From: a virus
Lineage: Duplodnaviria; Heunggongvirae; Uroviricota; Caudoviricetes
Length of the DNA stretch: 49,166 nt
Reading direction: 5' to 3' (one strand)
Virus record (IMG/VR): IMGVR_UViG_3300018080_000120
Shown piece after piece: positions 7,612 to 28,625 of the stretch. The stretch's first letter is position 1; each line of letters begins with the position of its first letter. Both the position numbers and the translations under genes were made by a program. Under the pieces are notes generated by a model. That model made no database searches. It was not told the origin of the DNA and saw nothing but the letters and a program-made list of their open reading frames with translations.

Positions 7612-8040
7612 TTAAGCAGCCTCTGTGTTCCATCTGGCGTATTGTATTTTAGAATCTAATACTTTTATATCTGACCTTATCTCGTCTATTTTTTTATTTA
7701 CTTTATTAATATCTATATATACAATATTATTAATATAATAGGAGTCATTCAGGATCTTTTCAAAGTGTAAGATTTTATCTTCCAACACTTTCTTTATTAT
7801 TGTAGCATCCTTCAGTCTGACTTCTGATTTATTAACTTTTATCATCGTCTTAGCTTCTGCTCTGTCGATAGACACAGAGAGCTGCTGATACTTGTCATAT
7901 AACTTTTCCAGATTTTCAAATGCTTTTTCCAACAATTCACCACTCTCATCAGTTTTCATAAGACGACTTATGTGTTGAATTGATCCTAACACTAATTTCT
8001 CAGTGTACTCCTTTTCTATTATAGCCTCTGCTAACAGCAT
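7612..8040 (-). CDS. DIP1984-like coiled-coil protein
   Basis: MLLAEA N-terminus and LDSKIQ..RWNT C-terminus resemble this family. Confidence 0.45.
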   Translation of the reverse strand: MLLAEAIIEKEYTEKLVLGSIQHISRLMKTDESGELLEKAFENLEKLYDKYQQLSVSIDRAEAKTMIKVNKSEVRLKDATIIKKVLEDKILHFEKILNDSYYINNIVYIDINKVNKKIDEIRSDIKVLDSKIQYARWNTEAA

Positions 8041-8052
8041 GACCTGCTCCTT

Positions 8053-8271
8053 TTACTCAGGAATAACTTCTTGAGCCTGAGCACCTTTGTCTGTTTCCAC
8101 CAACTTAAAGGTCACTTTCTGTCCAGCTTTCAGGGTTTTATACCCATCCATCTGAATATAAGAATAATGAACAAAGTATTCTTCTTCTTCGTCACCATCC
8201 TTAAATACAAAACCATAACCTCTTGTTGCGTTAAACCATTTTACAGTCCCATTAAGTCTCTCTTCTGTCAT
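8053..8271 (-). CDS. csp: Cold-shock protein
   Basis: GTVKWFN...GYGF, YFVHYS, GYKTL..GQKVTF, GAQAQEV. Confidence 0.95.
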   Translation of the reverse strand: MTEERLNGTVKWFNATRGYGFVFKDGDEEEEYFVHYSYIQMDGYKTLKAGQKVTFKLVETDKGAQAQEVIPE

Positions 8272-8289
8272 AATACAAATTCCTCCCAA

Positions 8290-8936: not shown

Positions 8937-9935
8937 TTATAATATAGCTGCCATTAATGCTCCATGCGCAACACAGGTCATGGGGTCATCAGCCCTACGA
9001 ACTTCTCTAATTTCAAAAGGAAATTTTCTTTCCTCCAACTCATTTTCAAATTTCTTCACAAAACCACCAGCTAATGATAAACCACCACTCACTATAACTG
9101 GCATTGCCTCCCTAAAAGCGGGCAGCTTAGTTTTCTCAAGTTCATATATAATATTATCTAACGCATATGTCATCAATATTACATAATAAATACTCAATGC
9201 TTCTTGTATTTTACTGGTCGGATTAGTTAAATCCAGATTTGACATTTCCTTCTCTATCTGAATCATAGAAGGTTCCATATCCAGAGCCTTTCCAACTGAT
9301 GCATCTATCCAATCCCCGCCGCGGGTTAACGAAAACTGAATTACAGGATCGCCCTCAAAACATACAGCCGTATTTACCATACCAGCACCGAAAGAAATGC
9401 ACATCCCTGTCAAATTGTCATCTAACAATTCAGAAAATGAAATTGCAAAAGCTTCATTTATTGGGCTTGGATTAAACCCCATTTCTTTAATATATTTCTT
9501 CATCATTTCACTATGATAAAATACATCAAATTCACCATCTACAGGTTCGGCTGGTATAGAAAAAACTAAATTAGTCTTTTCTTCTGTCTTTCCTATTAAA
9601 CTTTCTATAAGTCGTTTCATTATTGGTAAAGCATCTTTTTCTTTTGGTGATAACACACCTTTTCTCATTGGGCGGAGGGCATTTGAATTTCTTTCATTTG
9701 CCATTAAAAGAGCGTCTTCCCCGACAACAATAAAATCTTTACCATCAACAATATAGTTTGATTTGCGATTTTCTAACGCCATGTGTATACTTTTTCTGTT
9801 CACATCTGACTTTGGCGTCAATCTAAAAAATGCATCCCTCTCTTTTCTATAAATAGGCATACCATTAGCATCCATAGTAGCTGACACTAACATATTGGTT
9901 CCTATATCCAGACCAACACCTTTTTTCTCACCCAT
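8937..9935 (-). CDS. Actin-fold ATPase (ParM/MreB-like)
   Basis: Phosphate-1 GLDIGTN, connect NEAFA, phosphate-2 SFGAGMVN, adenosine SGGLS, connect-2 VAHG. Confidence 0.8.
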   Translation of the reverse strand: MGEKKGVGLDIGTNMLVSATMDANGMPIYRKERDAFFRLTPKSDVNRKSIHMALENRKSNYIVDGKDFIVVGEDALLMANERNSNALRPMRKGVLSPKEKDALPIMKRLIESLIGKTEEKTNLVFSIPAEPVDGEFDVFYHSEMMKKYIKEMGFNPSPINEAFAISFSELLDDNLTGMCISFGAGMVNTAVCFEGDPVIQFSLTRGGDWIDASVGKALDMEPSMIQIEKEMSNLDLTNPTSKIQEALSIYYVILMTYALDNIIYELEKTKLPAFREAMPVIVSGGLSLAGGFVKKFENELEERKFPFEIREVRRADDPMTCVAHGALMAAIL

Positions 9936-9943
9936 AATTACCC

Positions 9944-10534
9944 TCACTTATTTAATAATTTCTTCAACTTGGACAGATCATCCATGACATTCTTCGGTTT
10001 TTCCTTTTCCTCATCTTTTATTGTTATATGAGGATCCAAGTCATCCTTTTCGTCCGCCGGATCAATAAAAACCTTGTCATTAATCTGAGGTCTATCAGGC
10101 TCAACAACAAGGTTATCAGACATTTTGCTTGTCATATTAGAAAGTTGGATTTTCAACTCTGACATAAAATCAGCATATTTACCAGTTTCATTAAGTTTAA
10201 ATGTAAGTTCTGATATAATCCTATCTTTTTCTATTATCATTCTTTCTAATAAAGAAATTTTTGTAATGGCGGCTTGTAATTCTTTATTCAAATTATTAAA
10301 TTCATCATTATACCTTAAAGACATCTCTCTTTTTGTGGCTTCTACCGCATCATCTATTTTTTGCTTAATCTCATCAAAAGATAAACCAGATTGAGTGGAA
10401 GTATCCTTCTCGGCCTGCCTTTTTAATGACGCTTCATACGCCAATTGCTGTCGTCTTTGTATGTCTCTCGGCCCGCCGCTGCCAAGATGCTTCCTCGGAT
10501 CTTTCTTTATCTCTTTATTATAAGCGATTTTCAA
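9944..10534 (-). CDS. Coiled-coil protein, candidate actin adaptor
   Basis: Long heptad region; C-terminal amphipathic VMDDLSKLKKLLNK. Confidence 0.5.
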   Translation of the reverse strand: MKIAYNKEIKKDPRKHLGSGGPRDIQRRQQLAYEASLKRQAEKDTSTQSGLSFDEIKQKIDDAVEATKREMSLRYNDEFNNLNKELQAAITKISLLERMIIEKDRIISELTFKLNETGKYADFMSELKIQLSNMTSKMSDNLVVEPDRPQINDKVFIDPADEKDDLDPHITIKDEEKEKPKNVMDDLSKLKKLLNK

Positions 10535-10537
10535 ATC

Positions 10538-11122
10538 TTACTTCTCCCTCTTAAATAAAATTTCATCAATAATTCCATATTCTTTAGCTTCTTCAGGACT
10601 CATGAAATAGTCCCTGTCTAAATCTTTTTTCAATTTCTTAATAGAATGTCCTGTAATTTTAGATAGTTCGCCTAGCAAAATTTCATTTCTTACATCAGCT
10701 TCCTTCAATAATATCTTAATGTCTGCAATATTACCATCTGCTCCTGATGACACTTGATGCAACATTATTCTTGCATTCTTAAGAGCACTCCTTTTGCCTT
10801 TGGTGCCGGCTGCAAGAATAAAAGCTGCGGCACTGCATGCTTCACCTATACAAACCGTTCTGATATCAGGTTTTATATAATTCATGGTATCATAAATGGC
10901 CAGGCATGCATGAACATTCCCACCAGGACTATTTATATATATTGTGATATCCTTTTCAGAATCATCAGATTCCAAAAATAAAAGCTGGGCTGTTACTGAA
11001 TTCGCCAGCTCATCCCTAAATGACCTGCCAATAAATATTATCCTATCCTTCAATAACCTCGAATATAAATCGTAAGTCCTTTCTCCATTTCCATGTTCCT
11101 CTATAACATACGGTACTGACAT
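10538..11122 (-). CDS. clpP: ATP-dependent Clp protease proteolytic subunit
   Basis: YDLYSRLLKDRIIF, YINSPGG, ACSAAA (Ser), MLHQ (His), RDYFMSPEEAKEYGIID. Confidence 0.97.
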   Translation of the reverse strand: MSVPYVIEEHGNGERTYDLYSRLLKDRIIFIGRSFRDELANSVTAQLLFLESDDSEKDITIYINSPGGNVHACLAIYDTMNYIKPDIRTVCIGEACSAAAFILAAGTKGKRSALKNARIMLHQVSSGADGNIADIKILLKEADVRNEILLGELSKITGHSIKKLKKDLDRDYFMSPEEAKEYGIIDEILFKREK

Positions 11123-14766: not shown

Positions 14767-17043
14767 TTAACTACCTTCCAATAATTCTATTCTTGATATT
14801 AAATCCTCAATAATTATCTGCTGCTCTTGAACGGCTTTTATTAGTGGCATTACTAAAGCTTCTTTAGAAATACCAAGCATTCCACTATCACCAGCAGAAA
14901 CAGCTTCAGAATATACTTCTTGTAACTCTTGTGCTATAAACCCAATCACTTTGGGTCCTTCTGGATTTTTATTCCAGTTAAATTCTCTAACTCTTAATCC
15001 ATTTATAATTTCTATTCCATTTATTTGTGCATCTTCTATATTACATTTCAATCTCTCATCAGAGGTATCAGTAAGTGTAAATGTACCATTAACAGATTTA
15101 ATTTGGCCTGTCTCAGTCCCATTTCCATCTTTTGCTAATATAAAATAAGTAGTGCCAGAACCATCATTAGCGCCAGCCTGAATAGCCAATCCATATCTAT
15201 TTGCATCATCTCCAGCATTATAAATTCTCATAACATAATTAGATGCCCTATTGTTTTCTACATCTAATGGATAACTAGGAGAACCTGTACCAACACCAAC
15301 AAACCCATCACTTCCTTGTAAGAAAAGACCATAAGCACTAACATCACTTTCTACACGAAAATCTATATCAGACCCATCTTCATTAAACACTGTTGAAGTT
15401 GAGTTGAGTTGAAACCTTGGATTTCCAGTTGAATCATTAATATAGAAATTCGCAGATCCACATCCAAGAATTGCATGATAACCACTTGTATATTCTATCT
15501 TGAATTGTGGAGAAGAAGCGTGTTCTATATGCAGCAATGCATCAGTAGATCCAGCGGTATTAATTCCTACATATCCATTTTCATCTATCCTTAATCTATC
15601 AACTAGACCACCACCAGGTGCTGCAGTCTGAATAGTCAATTTTCCATCATCTTTATTTCCAGTATCAGGACCAGCCAATCCATAAATTGCAGCAATAGTG
15701 TTGTTATTCCATTGAAATTGGAGCCCGCCTACTGCATCGTTTTCTGAAGCTCTATTTGTATCAATTCTAATAAGTTCTGACGAATCGCCTGAATTGTATA
15801 ATTCTAACATAGTTCCAGGACTAGCTGTTCCAATACCAACATTTCCAGAGGAATCTATGTGCATTCTTTCATTCCCAGCAGCCATTCCGCCAGTGAAAAA
15901 TCCCATTTCACCACTTGCATGTCTTGCTACTAAGTTCAAACCACCAGATAGATCATCATTGGCATAAACACACATTCCATCTGCTTCAAACGCACCACTT
16001 GATGAATAAGACGAACCAAATACAAGTAAAGCACCTGAACCACCATCTTCAGTAAGATTAAGTTGGGCGTATCCAGTATTAAGACTTGATTGGATAATAA
16101 CCGTCGCAGAAGCAGAATCACCACCATTAACATCTAACAATTGAGATGGATCAGTCGTTCCAATACCTACTTTTCCAGAAGAATCAATAGTCATGGCATA
16201 TGTTCTTGTCATAGCACCATCTGCTCCAGGATTAGTACTATCCACAACAAATTGGTGCTCTCCTGAATATTGCCTATAATAGCTGGCTGTTCCAGCGTTT
16301 ATATGTTTCCACCCACCAGAACTTTCATAACAATTATTTGAAAACAAAGTATATGCACCTGTATTTCCCAAACTTGTATTTGCACCAAGCTGTAAAACAT
16401 CATAGGAAGAATCCCATATAGGTATGGTGGTTGTTCCAATTCCTACATTTTGACTTGCATCAATTGTAACAGCGTTAGTATTACTTGAATTAAACTGAAT
16501 AAGCCCGTCACTATCAAATACAAATTGATCACCACTATCGGCATATTGGATATAAGCTTTTCTTGTGGAATCTTGATAAAAACTCATATATGGATTTCCA
16601 GTAGCACTGGAATCCTGTATCCTCAACAATTCACCAGTCCCATAGGAATGTAGTTGAACGGCTGGAGTAATTCCAGCTCCTATACTTCCAGTAGTGTGAA
16701 AATCTCCTGTTCCAGAAATAGTTTGCGATCCGAAATTCCAAGTACCTGTTAATTGTCTATTTCCATTAGTTAATAGATATTGAGAATGATCATCATCTGT
16801 TAATCCATCAAGAGTCCCATGATCTGTAGTGCTGGAAATTTCCCATTTCATTTTACCCGCAGCATCATTCCAGATCAAAGTATACCCATCAGTTGGACTG
16901 TTATCAATATCCAACTTAGATTCAGGCACAGATCCATCTATCAACTTAGTACTACCAGATATACTAGTATTAGCAATATCTTCCCCAGTTAATGTCAGAT
17001 TTCTTATTTGGGAAGCCCTCACACTGGTATTTCTATCCGACAT
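14767..17043 (-). CDS. Tail fibre with C-terminal intramolecular chaperone (peptidase S74)
   Basis: Repeated IDSSGNVGIGT; SDERLKCNI...GFIAQEL...coiled coil. Confidence 0.85.
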   Translation of the reverse strand: MSDRNTSVRASQIRNLTLTGEDIANTSISGSTKLIDGSVPESKLDIDNSPTDGYTLIWNDAAGKMKWEISSTTDHGTLDGLTDDDHSQYLLTNGNRQLTGTWNFGSQTISGTGDFHTTGSIGAGITPAVQLHSYGTGELLRIQDSSATGNPYMSFYQDSTRKAYIQYADSGDQFVFDSDGLIQFNSSNTNAVTIDASQNVGIGTTTIPIWDSSYDVLQLGANTSLGNTGAYTLFSNNCYESSGGWKHINAGTASYYRQYSGEHQFVVDSTNPGADGAMTRTYAMTIDSSGKVGIGTTDPSQLLDVNGGDSASATVIIQSSLNTGYAQLNLTEDGGSGALLVFGSSYSSSGAFEADGMCVYANDDLSGGLNLVARHASGEMGFFTGGMAAGNERMHIDSSGNVGIGTASPGTMLELYNSGDSSELIRIDTNRASENDAVGGLQFQWNNNTIAAIYGLAGPDTGNKDDGKLTIQTAAPGGGLVDRLRIDENGYVGINTAGSTDALLHIEHASSPQFKIEYTSGYHAILGCGSANFYINDSTGNPRFQLNSTSTVFNEDGSDIDFRVESDVSAYGLFLQGSDGFVGVGTGSPSYPLDVENNRASNYVMRIYNAGDDANRYGLAIQAGANDGSGTTYFILAKDGNGTETGQIKSVNGTFTLTDTSDERLKCNIEDAQINGIEIINGLRVREFNWNKNPEGPKVIGFIAQELQEVYSEAVSAGDSGMLGISKEALVMPLIKAVQEQQIIIEDLISRIELLEGS

Positions 17044-20828: not shown

Positions 20829-21113
20829 TTACTTTCTTAAATGTCTAAAAAAAGGAATACTTTTAATAATATCTTCATTATCAACTTCGTCTTTGTTTTT
20901 ATAATGATTACAGTCAATGGTTATTTCTCTATCAATATCCATATTGGATATCAAACAGAGGTTCAAAACAACTATGTTATCGTTATCACTAAATAAAGCA
21001 TTGCCGTCCTCATCGACATAATCCTCCAACGACGTAGGTATAAAGCACCTACGAAATCGATAAGCGCAGTCTTTACAAATACTTTTTCCTTTAGATTTGT
21101 ATTTCTTCGTCAT
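20829..21113 (-). CDS. Cys-containing hypothetical protein
   Basis: CKDC...C...C.H. Confidence 0.55.
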   Translation of the reverse strand: MTKKYKSKGKSICKDCAYRFRRCFIPTSLEDYVDEDGNALFSDNDNIVVLNLCLISNMDIDREITIDCNHYKNKDEVDNEDIIKSIPFFRHLRK

Positions 21114-21318
21114 CTTTTCCCCGCTGTCTCAATGCTCTATCTACTGTTTCCTGATCCTTTTGGCAATCTATTTTGCCTTCCGCTTTTAATCGTTTAATCT
21201 TTGCGTTTATTGAATCAGCGGATCTGTTAAAAAGTTTTTGTAATTCCTGAATTGTCGAGGTCTTATAATGCTTTATAAGTAATGATTCCTCATACAATCC
21301 CCAACCCTTGCGACGCAT
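21091..21318 (-). CDS. Myb/homeodomain-like HTH protein
   Basis: W...EE.LL...Y...RS..SI..K..RL. Confidence 0.55.
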   Translation of the reverse strand: MRRKGWGLYEESLLIKHYKTSTIQELQKLFNRSADSINAKIKRLKAEGKIDCQKDQETVDRALRQRGKDDEEIQI

Positions 21319-21349
21319 GTTTTACCTCCGATCTTGCGCCTTCAGTTAT

Positions 21350-21378
21350 ATTATAGAATACAATTTTGGTTTTGCTAG
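21350..21378 (-). promoter_or_regulatory. Phage promoter copy 3
   Basis: CTAGCA-N17-TATAAT. Confidence 0.8.
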
Positions 21379-21429
21379 ACTGAAAAAATTTTCTATGGTT
21401 TAACCAATTATTTCAGTGTTTTGGTTAAT

Positions 21430-21837
21430 TTACCATAGTCCATTTAACATCTGCTTATAATTACTAATATCTAAATTATATTCATATACATATACCGGAA
21501 TAGATTTTTCTGCATCCGGAGCGCAAAATAATATATTAGCATCTATAATCTTTCTCCTGAATTTATCAGGGGTGTAGCCTTCAATCCCCTCTAATTTTTT
21601 AATAACAGCATCAATATTATTAAATCTCTGTATTTCACCATAAACTATATCTTTTTTATTATCAGATAGTTTAATTCCTGGAAATTTATCATCAATGTTG
21701 TATAATTTAGCATGAATAAATGTCGCTTTAGTATAAATTCTATTTTTTGATAACACTGAAATATATGGAAAATTTGTTCCAGCCCGTAAAGCACCATACA
21801 CAAATATTTTATCTAGGCGATCTAGGTCTTTTTTCAT
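21430..21837 (-). CDS. Gamma-glutamylcyclotransferase (GGACT/AIG2-like)
   Basis: IFVYGALR, FPGI, VYGEI, EGY; true start MKKDLD after RBS GGAGG. Confidence 0.75.
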   Translation of the reverse strand: MKKDLDRLDKIFVYGALRAGTNFPYISVLSKNRIYTKATFIHAKLYNIDDKFPGIKLSDNKKDIVYGEIQRFNNIDAVIKKLEGIEGYTPDKFRRKIIDANILFCAPDAEKSIPVYVYEYNLDISNYKQMLNGLW

Positions 21838-21865
21838 CGTCCTCCGTCCTAAAAATATTTTTTTG

Positions 21866-21937
21866 AGACGACGAGGGGACTCGAACCCCCATACGCAGGG
21901 TTGCAGCCTGCTACCTATCCAGTTCGGCCACGCCGTC
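21866..21937 (-). tRNA. tRNA-Cys(GCA)
   Basis: GACGGCG/CGTCGTC acceptor, GCAGG-CTGCAAC-CCTGC anticodon arm, TTCGAGT T-loop, U73; CCA not encoded. Confidence 0.92.
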
Positions 21938-21940
21938 TTG

Positions 21941-22021
21941 AGCGGGAGACGGGACTCGAACCCGCAGTGCATTAAGCGCCAGCTTGGAAGGCTGGTGGCA
22001 TACCAGTTTGCCTACTCCCGC
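21941..22021 (-). tRNA. tRNA-Gly(UCC) with 13-nt variable region
   Basis: GCGGGAG/CTCCCGC acceptor, CCAGC-CTTCCAA-GCTGG, U73; 81 nt; CCA not encoded. Confidence 0.88.
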
Positions 22022-22059
22022 TTTGTGTACTTCTTCATTCTAAATCAAAAAATAAAATC

Positions 22060-22311
22060 TTATTGCTGTTGTATTGCTACTACTTGAATATGCGGCATAA
22101 TTTTATTAGGTGGAGCAATAGTCAATGACACATGAAGGTCACACCTATATCTTTGTAATACAGCCTGGATTTCTTGAGTACATCCAGTGATTCTCTCATC
22201 TATTTCCCTTTGTAAAGCAGCCTTAGCTTCTTCTGCACTCACTTCTGGTTTCTTTGTAGCAGTGTTTTTGGATGCTGCTTTTTTGGTTTCAGTCTTCTTT
22301 TTTCTTGGCAT
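22060..22311 (-). CDS. Hypothetical protein with Lys-rich N-terminus
   Basis: RBS GGAG, ATG, helical body. Confidence 0.6.
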   Translation of the reverse strand: MPRKKKTETKKAASKNTATKKPEVSAEEAKAALQREIDERITGCTQEIQAVLQRYRCDLHVSLTIAPPNKIMPHIQVVAIQQQ

Positions 22312-22321
22312 GATACTCTCC

Positions 22322-22750
22322 TTATTTAATTATTTTTACTTTATATTTAATGGGGCGCACGGAGGGAATTGAACCCTCGATGGTGGTGTTAGAATCCACT
22401 GCCTTGGCCACTTGGCGACATGCGCTCGGTCCATACTCTTCTTTAATCTTTCTTATCCTATTTTCATCAGGTCTTAGTTCAGCAGACTGACCTTCATATG
22501 GATAAGAAGCTTCAATTTGACTTCGAGTCTTTCCTCTAAGCTCGGAATATGCTATATGTCTATGGCGATATTCCCGCCTAAGCTTATTAAGCGAATACGA
22601 ATTCTTAAAATATTCGTCCCACGCTTTTGAATTATAATGTGCGACCTCATAACCGCCGCGCTGATGCTCCTTAAATAAATTACGCTTTCGTCTAATTTCT
22701 TTTCCTGAATCTTTTAACCATTGTTTAAGTTCTGACATTTTACCTTTCAT
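22322..22750 (-). CDS. Conserved-type phage protein whose 3' end spans the CUA tRNA
   Basis: EYRHRHIAYSELRGKTRSQIE motif; frame stays open through the tRNA to the TAA of TAAGGAG. Confidence 0.6.
   Translation of the reverse strand: MKGKMSELKQWLKDSGKEIRRKRNLFKEHQRGGYEVAHYNSKAWDEYFKNSYSLNKLRREYRHRHIAYSELRGKTRSQIEASYPYEGQSAELRPDENRIRKIKEEYGPSACRQVAKAVDSNTTIEGSIPSVRPIKYKVKIIK
22351..22425 (-). tRNA. Amber-suppressor tRNA (anticodon CUA), Gln-like body
   Basis: GCGCATG/CGTGCGC acceptor, D arm GCC-AAGTGGCCAA-GGC, GTGGA-TTCTAAC-ACCAC, GAGGG-TTCAATT-CCCTC, C73, encoded CCA. Confidence 0.9.
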
Positions 22751-22762
22751 TTTTTATCTCCT

Positions 22763-22846
22763 TTAGATTGAATTTTTTTCCGCCAGGATAAAAAATGGAG
22801 GCCCTCTTGATAGAACCTATAATTTATCTAATCTTTTTATCTACAT
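22763..22846 (-). other. Mini-ORF with two in-frame TAG codons
   Basis: TAAGGAG RBS, ATG TAG ... TAG ... TAA; fills the gap between two genes. Confidence 0.3.
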
Positions 22847-22857
22847 GGATTATCTCC

Positions 22858-23073
22858 TTATTTAGAACCAAAAGACCCATTTTTGGTGGGGGTAGGAAAC
22901 TCCATTTCCATATAAACAGTTTCACCACCACAATTGGGACATTTGAAATTATCATCACATTCCATAGAAGCTATATACTGAATAAAGAAATTACATTTAG
23001 AACAATATACTTTTATAATATTGCCTACCTTTATCATCTTTCTTCTTTTTGGTCCTACAATGTCTTCAAACAT
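22858..23073 (-). CDS. Zinc-ribbon protein
   Basis: CSKC and CPNCGG; start MFEDIVG just after the tRNA. Confidence 0.6.
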   Translation of the reverse strand: MFEDIVGPKRRKMIKVGNIIKVYCSKCNFFIQYIASMECDDNFKCPNCGGETVYMEMEFPTPTKNGSFGSK

Positions 23074-23085
23074 ATTTCCTCTTTT

Positions 23086-23160
23086 TGGAGCGGACACGGG
23101 GTTTCGAACCCCGAACCTGCTGGATGGCATCCAGCTGCTCTACCGTTGAGCTATGTCCGC
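23086..23160 (-). tRNA. tRNA-Gly(GCC)
   Basis: GCGGACA/TGTCCGC, GCTGG-ATGCCAT-CCAGC, U73, encoded CCA. Confidence 0.95.
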
Positions 23161-23319
23161 TTATCTCTTTTTGTAACTGATCTTCTTTTTGCCGTTTATT
23201 ATGGTTTTCAAATATCCTCTTTCTTTACATTTGCCGGCTTTAGGGCAACTGTTACAATGCTCTAAAAACCTTAAAACACTCTCACAATTAAAATCTGAAG
23301 CGTGTACGGTATTTCCCAT
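23161..23319 (-). CDS. 52-aa Cys-rich protein (not in track)
   Basis: RBS AAGGAG; MGNTVHASDFNC...CNSCPKAGKC...; stop abuts the tRNA 5' end. Confidence 0.6.
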   Translation of the reverse strand: MGNTVHASDFNCESVLRFLEHCNSCPKAGKCKERGYLKTIINGKKKISYKKR

Positions 23320-23322
23320 AAA

Positions 23323-23874
23323 TTACTCCTTCCACTGCGTTTTTCTGCGACTTTTCCAGTTTTTTCTTGTTCGAATGTCGCTTCTTGCTTTATCTTCCCA
23401 CGCAGTAGGTAACCAATTTTTAGTTCTTTTACCTCTTATAAATTCTTTATAAGCTTCGTTCCATCTTAATTCTTGAGCTGTCTTCGGTTTTTTATAGTAA
23501 TTCTTGAAATATCGTCTATAACGTCTACTTCCTGTATAAGGCACAGGAGAATGTCTATAAATAAAATTTTCTCGTCTAAGACACCATTCTGTGCGCCTGG
23601 CGCGATTCTTTTGGCGAATGTCTTCCAGTATATCGTTCTTTGTAATTACACTACCAAATTCATCTCTAACGATATATCTAATAATCTCTTCGCCAGCCCG
23701 CGACCAAATGCGCATATATTTCTCTGGCCAATCCTTAAATGTGGTTACAACATGATCTTCCACAAACCAGTAATTCATTGCCTCAATAAATTCGTCATAA
23801 TTCTCGTACTCAAAAACTTCTCTATCGTTTTTTATTAATCGAATTCTTGGTTTGTATTGTGGTATGTCGTACAT
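23323..23874 (-). CDS. Basic hypothetical protein
   Basis: KPKTAQELR...LPTAWED...NWK.RRKTQW motif. Confidence 0.65.
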   Translation of the reverse strand: MYDIPQYKPRIRLIKNDREVFEYENYDEFIEAMNYWFVEDHVVTTFKDWPEKYMRIWSRAGEEIIRYIVRDEFGSVITKNDILEDIRQKNRARRTEWCLRRENFIYRHSPVPYTGSRRYRRYFKNYYKKPKTAQELRWNEAYKEFIRGKRTKNWLPTAWEDKARSDIRTRKNWKSRRKTQWKE

Positions 23875-23948
23875 GTGACCCCACCTCCTTATAGTAGTCT
23901 CAACTATAAGGCATCGGTCACATAGTAAATAACAGGTCCTCCCACCAT
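23873..23948 (-). promoter_or_regulatory. Leader peptide (MVGGPVIYYVTDAL-TAG) plus RBS-sequestering hairpin
   Basis: Perfect 8-bp (23873-80/23916-23) and 9-bp (23887-95/23903-11) stems cover part of AAGGAGG and the ATG. Confidence 0.6.
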
Positions 23949-23973
23949 ATTATTTACCCCTCCTTTATTTAGA

Positions 23974-24429
23974 TTATTTAGATCTTATTATTTCTTCTAA
24001 CAATCTTTTTTGTTTATCGTCCAAATAATTAGGCGGAACTACTTTTTTCTGATATTCCAGATACATATCGCAAACAAAATTCTTAGCTTCTTTTTCTGAA
24101 ATAAAAAGTAGTCCATCTTCTATTTCAATATTAATCATTGCAAAATATTTAGGAAAGAATTTTTCATCTTCTACACTAGGAATTTGTTCATCTTCTTCCA
24201 TATATTGTAGTAAATAAAGGCCTAATTGTATTGCATCGTATGTTCTTTGATTTTCAAGTGTTATCTTGACTTTTAAATTTTTATCAATTTTTTCAAGAGA
24301 ATAAATCAAGCATATACTCTCTTCTCTTGGATCCGGCATTTCAGACAAAGTCATCCTATTCCAAGATGCTGTGCATCCAAGACAAAATACTAACATACAG
24401 ATACATAAAAATTTAAGTAGTTTTCTCAC
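23974..24429 (-). CDS. Putative lipoprotein
   Basis: GTG start after GGAGG; signal peptide ending LVFCLG-C. Confidence 0.55.
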   Translation of the reverse strand: MRKLLKFLCICMLVFCLGCTASWNRMTLSEMPDPREESICLIYSLEKIDKNLKVKITLENQRTYDAIQLGLYLLQYMEEDEQIPSVEDEKFFPKYFAMINIEIEDGLLFISEKEAKNFVCDMYLEYQKKVVPPNYLDDKQKRLLEEIIRSK

Positions 24430-28448: not shown

Positions 28449-28625
28449 TTAATTTTCCCAAAATTTTAGTCCGATATCTTCAAAATCCTCACACCCATTT
28501 CTTCCCTAAATAAATATTTTTTCACCCTTTTCATTTTTCTTTGTAATTACAACCTTATGTCCCTTCAGACAGATGGATTTTTTAATATCGTTTTTACAAT
28601 GTTCACAAATATAATAATCCTTCAC
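28449..28625 (-). CDS. Small Cys-rich gene interrupted by one TAG (28506-28508)
   Basis: GTG KDYYICEHCKNDIKKSICLKGHK...KIFI*GRNGCEDFEDIGLKFWEN TAA; fills the whole intergenic gap. Confidence 0.55.

What the first reader, a model, noticed from the sequence alone, without database searches (positions are those of the whole stretch)
22351..22425. Amber-suppressor tRNA(CUA) in a phage that still uses TAG as a stop
Seen: a complete 75-nt cloverleaf with anticodon CTA and encoded CCA. The D arm and anticodon region resemble E. coli tRNA-Gln(CUG), but it has G1-C72, C73 and an A31.A39 mismatch, so its amino-acid identity is unclear. Also seen: long genes contain no internal TAG, and at least 12 genes end in TAG. 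Known: CUA tRNAs are typical of TAG-recoded (code 15) phages. Inference: this one serves conditional or partial read-through, or marks a genome entering or leaving recoding.
Basis: partly seen in the sequence, partly recalled or inferred. Interest (0 to 1): 0.85.

Follow-up and report, generated by a model that had tools for sequence, protein, structure and literature searches.

The report
Self-gated amber-suppressor tRNA cassette
A marine-sediment phage that uses the normal genetic code carries a real stop-codon-reading tRNA that belongs to a small conserved gene cassette, and a leader in that cassette holds two UAG stops, so the tRNA probably switches on its neighbouring gene rather than recoding the genome.

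Summary
Window 22351-22425 (-) is a genuine tRNA with anticodon CUA, G1-C72, C73, encoded CCA and an A31.A39 mismatch. The phage uses code 11, and 13-16 genes end in TAG.

The tRNA is neither a mutation nor a sign of recoding in progress. Ten diverged relatives keep it with CUA, with strong covariation and mostly a 4-bp anticodon stem. TAG makes up 15-21% of their stops. No conserved long gene carries an in-frame TAG.

It sits in a conserved cassette:
- a leader mini-ORF (22763-22846) with two in-frame UAGs and a Pro-Pro motif;
- a covarying hairpin that sequesters the ribosome-binding site of the next gene;
- ORF-X (helical, no Pfam family, over 1000 clusters);
- a PTH2-fold hydrolase gene in most relatives, lost in this phage;
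- the tRNA(CUA).

In IMG/VR, 69 of 80 loci with the PTH2-like gene carry a tRNA(CUA), mostly just downstream.

Best reading: a limited suppressor whose demonstrable client is its own cassette, so that ORF-X translation is gated by suppression. The amino acid inserted, expression and ultimate purpose are unknown.

This scan found the PTH2 plus CUA pairing before on other DNA. I found no paper describing it.

The parts
22351..22425 (-). tRNA(CUA): 75 nt, G1-C72, C73, encoded CCA, A31.A39 mismatch giving an effective 4-bp anticodon stem; anticodon at 22390-22392
   Evidence: ARAGORN; Rfam 54.3 bits; nine clade orthologues with 15 of 21 pairs compensatory and CUA invariant
22763..22846 (-). Leader mini-ORF behind an AAGGAG ribosome-binding site: ATG, UAG at codon 2 (22841-22843), UAG at codon 10 (22817-22819), Arg-Gly-Pro-Pro at 22796-22807, stop TAA at 22763-22765 just before the ORF-X ribosome-binding site
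   Evidence: Same design (M-x-UAG ... UAG ... Pro-Pro-stop) in 11 relatives, with synonymous changes after the first UAG. In the wider IMG/VR set 27 of 70 loci have it, against 0 of 70 on the reverse strand. Also seen in distant contigs L205, L206, L208
22799..22818 (-). Stem-loop starting right after the second UAG, followed by a U-run (terminator-like) inside the leader
   Evidence: a hairpin in the same place in L061, L111 and L114
22748..22797 (-). Hairpin sequestering the ribosome-binding site: 5' arm 22785-22797 lies in the last leader codons, 3' arm 22748-22761 covers the Shine-Dalgarno sequence AGGAG and the AUG of ORF-X
   Evidence: Predicted in 9 of 9 phages although the arm sequences differ. 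RNAalifold finds 7 of 9 pairs with compensatory changes
22322..22750 (-). ORF-X: conserved part 22426-22750 (108 aa, helical hairpin, motif EYRH-x-HIAYSELRG). In this phage the frame runs on through the whole tRNA to a TAA at 22322-22324
   Evidence: 27 close clusters; 1074 representatives at E<=1e-3; no Pfam or PHROG family; AF2 pLDDT 91.4; no significant fold match
23086..23160 (-). tRNA-Gly(GCC), upstream neighbour in the conserved tRNA block
   Evidence: same order in L015, L060, G003, G004
21940..22021 (-). tRNA-Gly(UCC), downstream neighbour, with a 13-nt variable region
21865..21937 (-). tRNA-Cys(GCA), last gene of the tRNA block

Best explanation
The gene is a working amber-suppressor tRNA. 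It is the RNA part of a small, self-gated cassette that many large standard-code phages carry. The cassette order is: leader mini-ORF with two in-frame UAG codons and a Pro-Pro end, a hairpin that hides the ribosome-binding site of ORF-X, ORF-X, a PTH2-fold hydrolase gene (present in most relatives, lost here), and then the tRNA(CUA).

Inferred mechanism: without the tRNA, ribosomes stop at codon 2 of the leader and the hairpin keeps ORF-X untranslated. When charged tRNA(CUA) outcompetes RF1 at both UAGs, ribosomes reach the leader's end, sit on the 5' arm of the hairpin and free the Shine-Dalgarno sequence and AUG of ORF-X.

The rest of the genome uses TAG as an ordinary stop. Suppression is therefore probably weak or tightly held, and the tRNA serves this switch rather than a changed genetic code.

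Shown: the tRNA, its conservation, the cassette, the conserved UAGs and the hairpin. Inferred: charging, read-through, activation of ORF-X, and what ORF-X does.
For: (1) Real tRNA.

(2) Nine orthologues from phages whose terminases are as little as about 60% identical keep C34 U35 A36 A37. All 7 acceptor pairs covary, 92.6% of cells are paired, and 0 of 500 shuffles reach the observed score.

(3) ORF-X lies directly upstream of tRNA(CUA) in every relative with context: window, L015, L060, L061, L062, G003, G004, L111, L114, L116, L118.

(4) The leader with two UAGs is present in all of them. Codons after the first UAG change synonymously (Arg AGA/CGA/CGC, Leu TTA/CTT, Asp GAT/GAC; Pro-Pro as CCT CCA, CCC CCA, CCA CCA, CCG CCT), which argues for translation past UAG.

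(5) The hairpin is predicted in 9 of 9 phages with different arm sequences and shows compensatory pairs.

(6) In the wider family, 69 of 80 IMG/VR loci with the PTH2-like gene have tRNA(CUA) on the same strand, mostly 4-130 nt downstream. About 25 of 86 PTH2-like genes start M-x-UAG, and 9 carry a UAG at different places inside the domain, so an amino acid must be inserted there. The cultured Acinetobacter phage ME3 has the pair.

(7) Code 11 throughout.
Against: There are no data on expression or charging, and the only run that spans the tRNA is probably the source sample.

The inserted amino acid is unknown. The discriminator base varies: C here, U in six, A in two and G in one clade member, and A36/U10/G10/C1 in the wider set.

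A suppressor should extend the 15-21% of genes that end in TAG. There is no sign of back-up stops: the median extension is 10 codons after TAG against 7 after TAA.

The Pro-Pro codons also pair with the start of ORF-X, so part of their conservation may be at the RNA level.

This phage lacks the PTH2-like gene that defines the cassette elsewhere.

The window's own fold is only weakly better than shuffles (z -1.26).
Confidence: 0.62

Rival explanations
1. A general weak suppressor with no dedicated client. It would buffer amber mutations in a large genome, add C-terminal extensions to some proteins, or disturb host termination. The upstream leader would be incidental.
For: TAG ends 13-16 window genes. 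Cultured standard-code jumbo phages carry tRNA(CUA) or tRNA(UCA) with no target found (XacN1, PMC5852040; Atu_ph07, PMC6102473). Read-through of window TAG stops gives no conserved extension.
Against: This does not explain the strict linkage of the tRNA to ORF-X, the PTH2-like gene and a leader whose UAGs are conserved while neighbouring codons vary. Mutation buffering is too weak a benefit to keep a gene over this much divergence.
Confidence: 0.15
2. The tRNA does not insert an amino acid in this phage. Uncharged or specially loaded, it would act with ORF-X (and the PTH2-like hydrolase in relatives) at UAG codons, for example in RF1-independent release or rescue, or it would act as a decoy for an anticodon nuclease.
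For: The discriminator is not conserved. The 31.39 pair is broken in 8 of 9 clade members and in 22 of 57 tRNAs of the wider set, and C33 occurs in 10 of 57. The tRNA is constantly linked to a peptidyl-tRNA-hydrolase fold. TAG stays a common stop.
Against: In-frame UAGs at varied positions inside PTH2-like genes, and at their codon 3, need a residue to be inserted. Leader codons after the UAGs show coding-type conservation. The acceptor stem and T arm are kept as in elongator tRNAs.
Confidence: 0.12
3. A mark of TAG recoding: either unseen parts of the genome use code 15, or the lineage is moving into or out of it.
For: Suppressor tRNAs are typical of recoded phages, and standard-code relatives with suppressors have been read as precursors (Borges et al. 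preprint 10.1101/2021.08.26.457843). Lak megaphages also carry the PTH2-like gene next to a stop-reading tRNA (UUA). The genome is not complete: no whole genome is held, and CheckV rates relatives 17-55% complete.
Against: ORF coverage under code 11 is 0.89-0.99 over 385 kb of window and relatives, and code 15 gains no more than code 4 does. No conserved long gene holds an in-frame TAG. Structural genes beyond the window, including a 6803-aa ORF, are open under code 11. TAG is 15-21% of stops. No RF-1 domain was found in G001-G005.
Confidence: 0.05

Closest known systems
Suppressor tRNAs of stop-codon-recoded phages (code 15 crAss-like, Lak and others; Borges et al.)
   Same: A phage-encoded tRNA with a CUA anticodon, standard-code host machinery presumably charges it, and it is linked to control of phage gene expression.
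   Different: There is no genome-wide or late-gene recoding here, TAG is a common stop and no release-factor or synthetase gene was found. The UAG clients are confined to the cassette itself.
tRNA(CUA) or tRNA(UCA) genes of cultured standard-code jumbo phages (XacN1, Atu_ph07, Acinetobacter ME3)
   Same: A standard-code large phage with an amber or opal suppressor. ME3 and XacN1 also encode the PTH2-like protein, and in ME3 the tRNA lies 450 nt from it.
   Different: The papers found no targets. Here a conserved leader, the ORF-X gene and a sequestering hairpin are identified. This phage lacks the PTH2-like gene, and ORF-X was not found in cultured phages by tblastn.
Leader-peptide translational attenuators (ermC, cat, secM-secA type; from established knowledge)
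   Same: A short upstream ORF with its own ribosome-binding site, a hairpin that hides the next gene's ribosome-binding site, and a ribosome held at the leader's end that opens it. A C-terminal Pro-Pro is a known slow-termination context.
   Different: The inducing signal would be a stop-codon-reading tRNA encoded in the same operon, not a drug or a secretion defect. Two UAG codons act as the gate.
prfB (RF2) autoregulation through an in-frame UGA (from established knowledge)
   Same: An in-frame stop codon early in a message senses how efficiently that stop is decoded and sets the output accordingly.
   Different: That case works by a +1 frameshift and senses a release factor. This one works by read-through and senses the balance between tRNA and RF1. 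The regulated product is not a release factor as far as can be told.
tRNAs with 4-bp anticodon stems (Fakih et al. 2026, PMC13092985)
   Same: One end pair of the anticodon stem is unpinned. The paper links this state to stronger stop-codon reading and, in an old E. coli suppressor screen it cites, to UAA reading by C:A wobble.
   Different: Those cases are mostly tRNA-Trp(CCA) reading UGA. Here a fully cognate CUA tRNA has the bottom pair (31.39) open, and the effect is untested.

Membership tests
Elongator tRNA (Rfam RF00005) | Score above the curated threshold and a full cloverleaf with a 7-bp acceptor stem, G18 G19, and a T loop | tested here: met
   54.3 bits against a threshold of 29; acceptor and T stems 100% paired in 9 orthologues
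Elongator tRNA (Rfam RF00005) | 5-bp anticodon stem closed by a 31-39 pair | tested here: not met
   A31.A39 here; unpaired in 8 of 9 orthologues
Suppressor tRNA of a TAG-recoded (code 15) phage | In-frame TAG in many conserved phage genes, so that code 15 restores coding density | tested here: not met
Suppressor tRNA of a TAG-recoded (code 15) phage | TAG rare or absent as a true stop | tested here: not met
   13-16 of about 98 genes here; 15-21% of stops in relatives
Suppressor tRNA of a TAG-recoded (code 15) phage | Accompanying RF2 or aminoacyl-tRNA synthetase gene ('code change module') | tested here: inconclusive
   None among the annotated window genes. No RF-1 domain in G001-G005. All these records are fragments
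tRNA-Gln-derived amber suppressor (supE type) | Weak 1-72 pair, G73, G2-C71, G3-C70, G10 (E. coli GlnRS identity set, from established knowledge) | tested here: not met
   G1-C72, C2-G71 and C73 here; only G10 and G3-C70 fit. The relatives' own tRNA-Gln(CUG) has U1-A72 and G73 and is unlike the CUA tRNA
tRNA-Pyl | 3-nt variable loop, small D loop, 6-bp anticodon stem, pyl genes (from established knowledge) | tested here: not met
   5-nt variable loop, 8-nt D loop, 4-bp anticodon stem. ARAGORN's 'Pyl' is only its label for the cta anticodon
Leader / ORF-X / PTH2-like / tRNA(CUA) cassette of large phages (seen earlier by this scan, not found in papers) | tRNA(CUA) on the same strand at the 3' end of the operon | tested here: met
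Leader / ORF-X / PTH2-like / tRNA(CUA) cassette of large phages (seen earlier by this scan, not found in papers) | PTH2-fold hydrolase gene next to the tRNA | tested here: not met
   No hit to the PTH2-like profile in the window, in L119, or in L060, L061, L111, L114, L116. Present in L015, G003, G004, L118, L062
Leader / ORF-X / PTH2-like / tRNA(CUA) cassette of large phages (seen earlier by this scan, not found in papers) | ORF-X gene at the head of the operon | tested here: met
   Window 22426-22750. Found in 40 of 80 IMG/VR loci with the clade profile. In 4 of 4 distant representatives ORF-X is followed by the PTH2-like gene
Leader / ORF-X / PTH2-like / tRNA(CUA) cassette of large phages (seen earlier by this scan, not found in papers) | Short leader with an early in-frame UAG | tested here: met
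   Window 22763-22846; conserved
Leader-peptide translational attenuator | Hairpin that sequesters the downstream ribosome-binding site, with its 5' arm at the leader's end | tested here: met
   Predicted in 9 of 9 phages, with covariation
Leader-peptide translational attenuator | Ribosome pausing at the leader's end that raises downstream translation | not testable with these tools
   Inferred from the Pro-Pro-stop motif; needs toeprinting or reporters

The most novel reading that the evidence does not exclude
A tRNA-operated translational switch. A phage-encoded amber suppressor and a two-UAG, Pro-Pro leader would form a sensor of how UAG is being decoded (tRNA against RF1). The sensor would turn on ORF-X and, in most phages, a PTH2-like peptidyl-tRNA hydrolase. 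The cassette would be a widespread phage module, never described, for monitoring or overriding termination at UAG. It would be the ancestral platform from which TAG recoding in phages could evolve, and ORF-X would be a new termination- or tRNA-directed factor.
Probability: 0.35. Interest if true: 0.85.

Novelty: new variant of a known kind. Interest (0 to 1): 0.72.

Why it matters
Suppressor tRNAs in phages that keep the standard code have been a loose end. The XacN1 paper looked for targets and found none, and they have otherwise been read as first steps toward recoding.

This window and its relatives give a concrete, testable target: a conserved leader with two UAGs that controls access to the ribosome-binding site of a conserved unknown gene.

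The cassette is widespread. ORF-X has over 1000 clusters, and tRNA(CUA) accompanies 69 of 80 loci with the PTH2-like gene.

This window is an informative variant. It has lost the hydrolase but kept the leader, ORF-X and the tRNA, which points to ORF-X and the tRNA as the core.

If the mechanism holds, it is a natural tRNA-gated gene switch. It would interest people who study translation control, the evolution of the genetic code, and orthogonal suppressor systems.

Tried and rejected
- No whole genome is held for the window.
- megablast of 21000-24000 against cultured phages gave no match. An exact tRNA pattern in IMG/VR gave no match.
- blastn of the tRNA found only weak hits to other phage tRNAs and nothing in E. 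coli. The Gln likeness therefore could not be shown.
- The nearest cultured terminase is at most 30.5% identical, so the host is unknown.
- No RNA holder was listed among the sequencing runs. Contigs of X2-X4 do not span the tRNA.
- ORF-X has no Pfam or PHROG family. The Atlas feature search gave no usable hit. Foldseek against PDB and the Atlas gave only generic helical hairpins. tblastn found no ORF-X in cultured phages.
- The small CxxC ORF with one TAG at 28449-28625 has no homologue in the fetched loci, so it could not be tested as a client.
- Read-through extensions of TAG-terminated genes showed only neighbouring genes that happen to share a frame. The stop there is not consistently TAG, and extra stops occur in some relatives.
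- The columns holding in-domain UAGs in PTH2-like genes are variable, so the inserted amino acid cannot be inferred.
- The second leader at 23874-23948 keeps its hairpin in relatives but its in-frame TAG in only 3 of 7.
- The sequence profile of the PTH2-like protein against PDB was weak (E 0.16). The fold search was needed to place it.
- I did not run a complex prediction, because I make no binding claim.

Full report
**Observation.** ARAGORN finds four tRNA genes on the minus strand of the window: Gly(GCC) 23086-23160, a CUA tRNA 22351-22425, Gly(UCC) 21940-22021 and Cys(GCA) 21865-21937. Rfam's tRNA model scores the CUA gene at 54.3 bits against a threshold of 29. It flags a single non-standard pair, 31.39, which is A.A. 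The sequence shows G1-C72, C2-G71, G3-C70, discriminator C73, encoded CCA and the loop UUCUAAC. ARAGORN's 'tRNA-Pyl' is only its label for this anticodon, and the body is not Pyl-like. I could not reproduce that: blastn finds no E. coli match, and with the anticodon masked the nearest phage tRNAs are Gly, with weak scores.

**What the window is.** It is part of a large phage genome with 36% G+C. It has a large terminase at 724-2421 and a tail fibre at 14767-17043. The same terminase lies on a 103.5-kb public contig, which continues beyond window position 1 with portal-sized and other structural-sized genes and a 6803-aa tape-measure-like ORF. Relatives are common in IMG/VR, with 56 loci whose terminases are 40-87% identical. 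No cultured phage is closer than 30.5%. The DNA is held by sediment and seawater metagenomes.

**Genetic code.**
- Code 11 gives dense coding in the window, and no long ORF needs TAG read as sense.
- About 98 genes end 68-71 times in TAA, 13-16 times in TAG and 14 times in TGA.
- Over 385 kb of window plus four related records, stop-to-stop ORF coverage under code 11 is 0.89-0.99. Removing TAG gains no more than removing TGA does.
- A cross-genome search for in-frame TAG inside conserved coding alignments found only off-frame or antisense artefacts.
- TAG makes up 15-21% of stops in the window and in G001-G004. Extensions after TAG are no shorter than after TAA.
- No RF-1 domain occurs in the five related records, although these are fragments.

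The phage is therefore not recoded in anything I could see.

**Conservation of the tRNA.** The CUA tRNA is present in the same tRNA block in L015/G001, L060, L061, G003, G004, L111, L114, L116 and L118. On nine orthologues, 15 of 21 pairs show compensatory changes, all seven acceptor pairs covary, 92.6% of cells pair, and no shuffle reaches the observed score. C34 U35 A36 A37 are invariant. The 31.39 position is unpaired in 8 of 9 (A.A or A.C), so this is a family of tRNAs with a 4-bp anticodon stem. The discriminator is not conserved: C here, U in six, A in two, G in one. The amino-acid identity therefore cannot be read from the acceptor end. E. coli work shows that CUA tRNAs tend to be taken by GlnRS or LysRS through U35, and that the 31-39 pair shifts that balance (PMC1483225). 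A recent survey links 4-bp anticodon stems with stronger stop-codon reading and cites an old screen tying them to UAA reading by C:A wobble (PMC13092985). These are leads, not tests.

**The cassette.** In every relative the tRNA is preceded by a roughly 108-aa gene that I call ORF-X (window 22426-22750).
- ORF-X has 27 close clusters and 1074 representatives at E<=1e-3 in an exhaustive profile search.
- It has no Pfam or PHROG family.
- It folds confidently as a long helical hairpin plus short helices (pLDDT 91.4), with no informative structural match.
- In the window the ORF-X frame runs through the whole tRNA. In L060, L061 and many database homologues it ends at the TAA formed by U35 A36 A37 of the anticodon loop. 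The protein tails show this.

In L015, G003, G004, L118 and the more distant L062, a 96-aa gene lies between ORF-X and the tRNA. Its model (pLDDT 90.5) matches only PTH2 peptidyl-tRNA hydrolases at the top of Foldseek: 2zv3, 1q7s, 1xty, 1wn2 and 3erj, with TM 0.7-0.83.

Searching IMG/VR with this protein returned 257 relatives. Of the best 80 loci, 69 carry a tRNA(CUA) on the same strand, mostly starting 4-130 nt after the gene. Two more carry tRNA(UCA) in that place. ORF-X is detectable directly upstream in 40 of the 80. Four arbitrarily chosen distant ORF-X representatives are all followed by the PTH2-like gene.

The window phage, its next 20 kb, and the fetched parts of L060, L061, L111, L114 and L116 have no such gene. 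The two C-terminal types of ORF-X suggest that the loss happened at least twice.

**Clients of the suppressor.** This scan had noted before, on other genomes, that the PTH2-like gene is often interrupted by an early UAG. I checked this. About 25 of 86 genes start M-x-UAG, including the gene of the cultured Acinetobacter phage ME3. Nine carry a UAG at different, variable positions inside the domain. In the window's close clade the gene has no UAG.

Behind an AAGGAG site comes ATG, a UAG at codon 2-3, a second UAG about seven codons later, and an ending in Arg/Lys/Ser-Gly/Ser/Pro-Pro-Pro followed by a stop. All eleven relatives have it. Between and after the UAGs the peptide is conserved (Lys-Arg-Leu-Asp ... 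Pro-Pro) while codons change synonymously. This is what translation past UAG predicts. In the wider IMG/VR set, 27 of 70 distinct loci have such a leader upstream of the cassette and 18 end in Pro-Pro. The reverse strand of the same stretches has none. Distant contigs show M-T-UAG...Pro-Pro-UAG...Pro-Pro-stop.

**The hairpin.** In nine of nine phages, the minimum-energy fold pairs the stretch at or just after the leader's stop with the Shine-Dalgarno sequence and AUG of ORF-X. The arm sequences differ between phages, and z-scores run from -1.3 to -3.8. RNAalifold on a plain MAFFT alignment still finds 7 of 9 pairs with compensatory changes. In the window the arms are 22785-22797 and 22748-22761. 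The window's leader runs ten codons past Pro-Pro and ends at a TAA next to the ORF-X ribosome-binding site. A second stem-loop begins right after the second UAG. In the window it is followed by a U-run, so it looks like a terminator. Transcriptional attenuation may therefore add to the translational control.

**Mechanism (inferred).** Without active tRNA(CUA), ribosomes terminate at leader codon 2 and the hairpin blocks ORF-X. With it, ribosomes pass both UAGs, reach the leader's end, cover the 5' arm and expose the ORF-X start. Pro-Pro before a stop is a known slow-termination context. ORF-X, and the hydrolase where present, would thus be made only while UAG is being read through. ORF-X or the hydrolase gene ends on or against the 5' end of the tRNA, so translating ribosomes could also interfere with tRNA processing from the same transcript. 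That would be a possible negative feedback, and it is speculation. What the cassette is ultimately for is open. Two ideas fit the parts but are untested: managing the consequences of read-through (peptidyl-tRNA turnover, ribosomes run into 3' ends), or sensing RF1 activity.

**Comparison with what is known.** Phage suppressor tRNAs are well known in recoded phages and are reported in a few standard-code jumbo phages without targets. Leader-controlled hairpins over a ribosome-binding site are classical. I found no paper that links a phage suppressor tRNA with a PTH2-like gene, ORF-X or a UAG-bearing leader. The scan's own earlier notes describe the PTH2 plus CUA pairing on other DNA. This window adds three things: the hydrolase-less variant, the two-UAG leader conserved across a clade, and the covarying hairpin.

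**Verdict.** Confidence in the main reading is about 0.6.

Noticed in passing
window 23874-23948 (-): A second short leader (14 codons, then TAG, then 4 more codons to a TAA) lies in front of gene 23323-23874. A 9-bp hairpin covers the TAG and part of the Shine-Dalgarno sequence. Relatives keep the hairpin, but the in-frame TAG is present in only 3 of 7.
   Followed up: partly
window 28449-28625 (-): A small Cys-rich ORF is interrupted by one in-frame TAG and fills an intergenic gap. I found no homologue in the fetched loci, so it remains untested as a suppressor client.
   Followed up: partly
window 21940-22021 (-): tRNA-Gly(UCC) has an unusually long variable region of about 13 nt.
   Followed up: no
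window 7612-8289 (-): A cold-shock-domain gene and the next gene share a reading frame in most relatives, separated by one stop and 2-4 codons. The stop is TAG in G003 but TAA in the window.
   Followed up: partly
L119 19896 onward (same phage, beyond window position 1): The gene call on the 103.5-kb contig reports a 6803-aa ORF with a PhageMin_Tail domain, an exceptionally long tape-measure-like gene.
   Followed up: no
L204 (Prevotella phage Lak-A2) 740-812 and 1501-1752: In a TAG-recoded megaphage, the PTH2-like gene sits about 700 nt from a tRNA with anticodon UUA rather than CUA.
   Followed up: no
L120-L199 (IMG/VR loci): Among 57 distinct CUA tRNAs next to PTH2-like genes, 22 have a non-Watson-Crick 31.39 pair, only 2 have G-C there, and 10 have C33 instead of the near-universal U33.
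   Followed up: partly
window 8937-9947 (-) and 10538-11122 (-): On the identical contig these carry an actin-like gene (Pfam Volactin/MreB hits) and a ClpP-family protease gene.
   Followed up: no
L112 (GCA_016840695.1, contig JAEORV010000165.1): A 5-kb contig carrying ORF-X and the tRNA(CUA) is filed inside an NCBI genome assembly. It is possibly a phage contig binned with a bacterial MAG, which could hint at the host.
   Followed up: no
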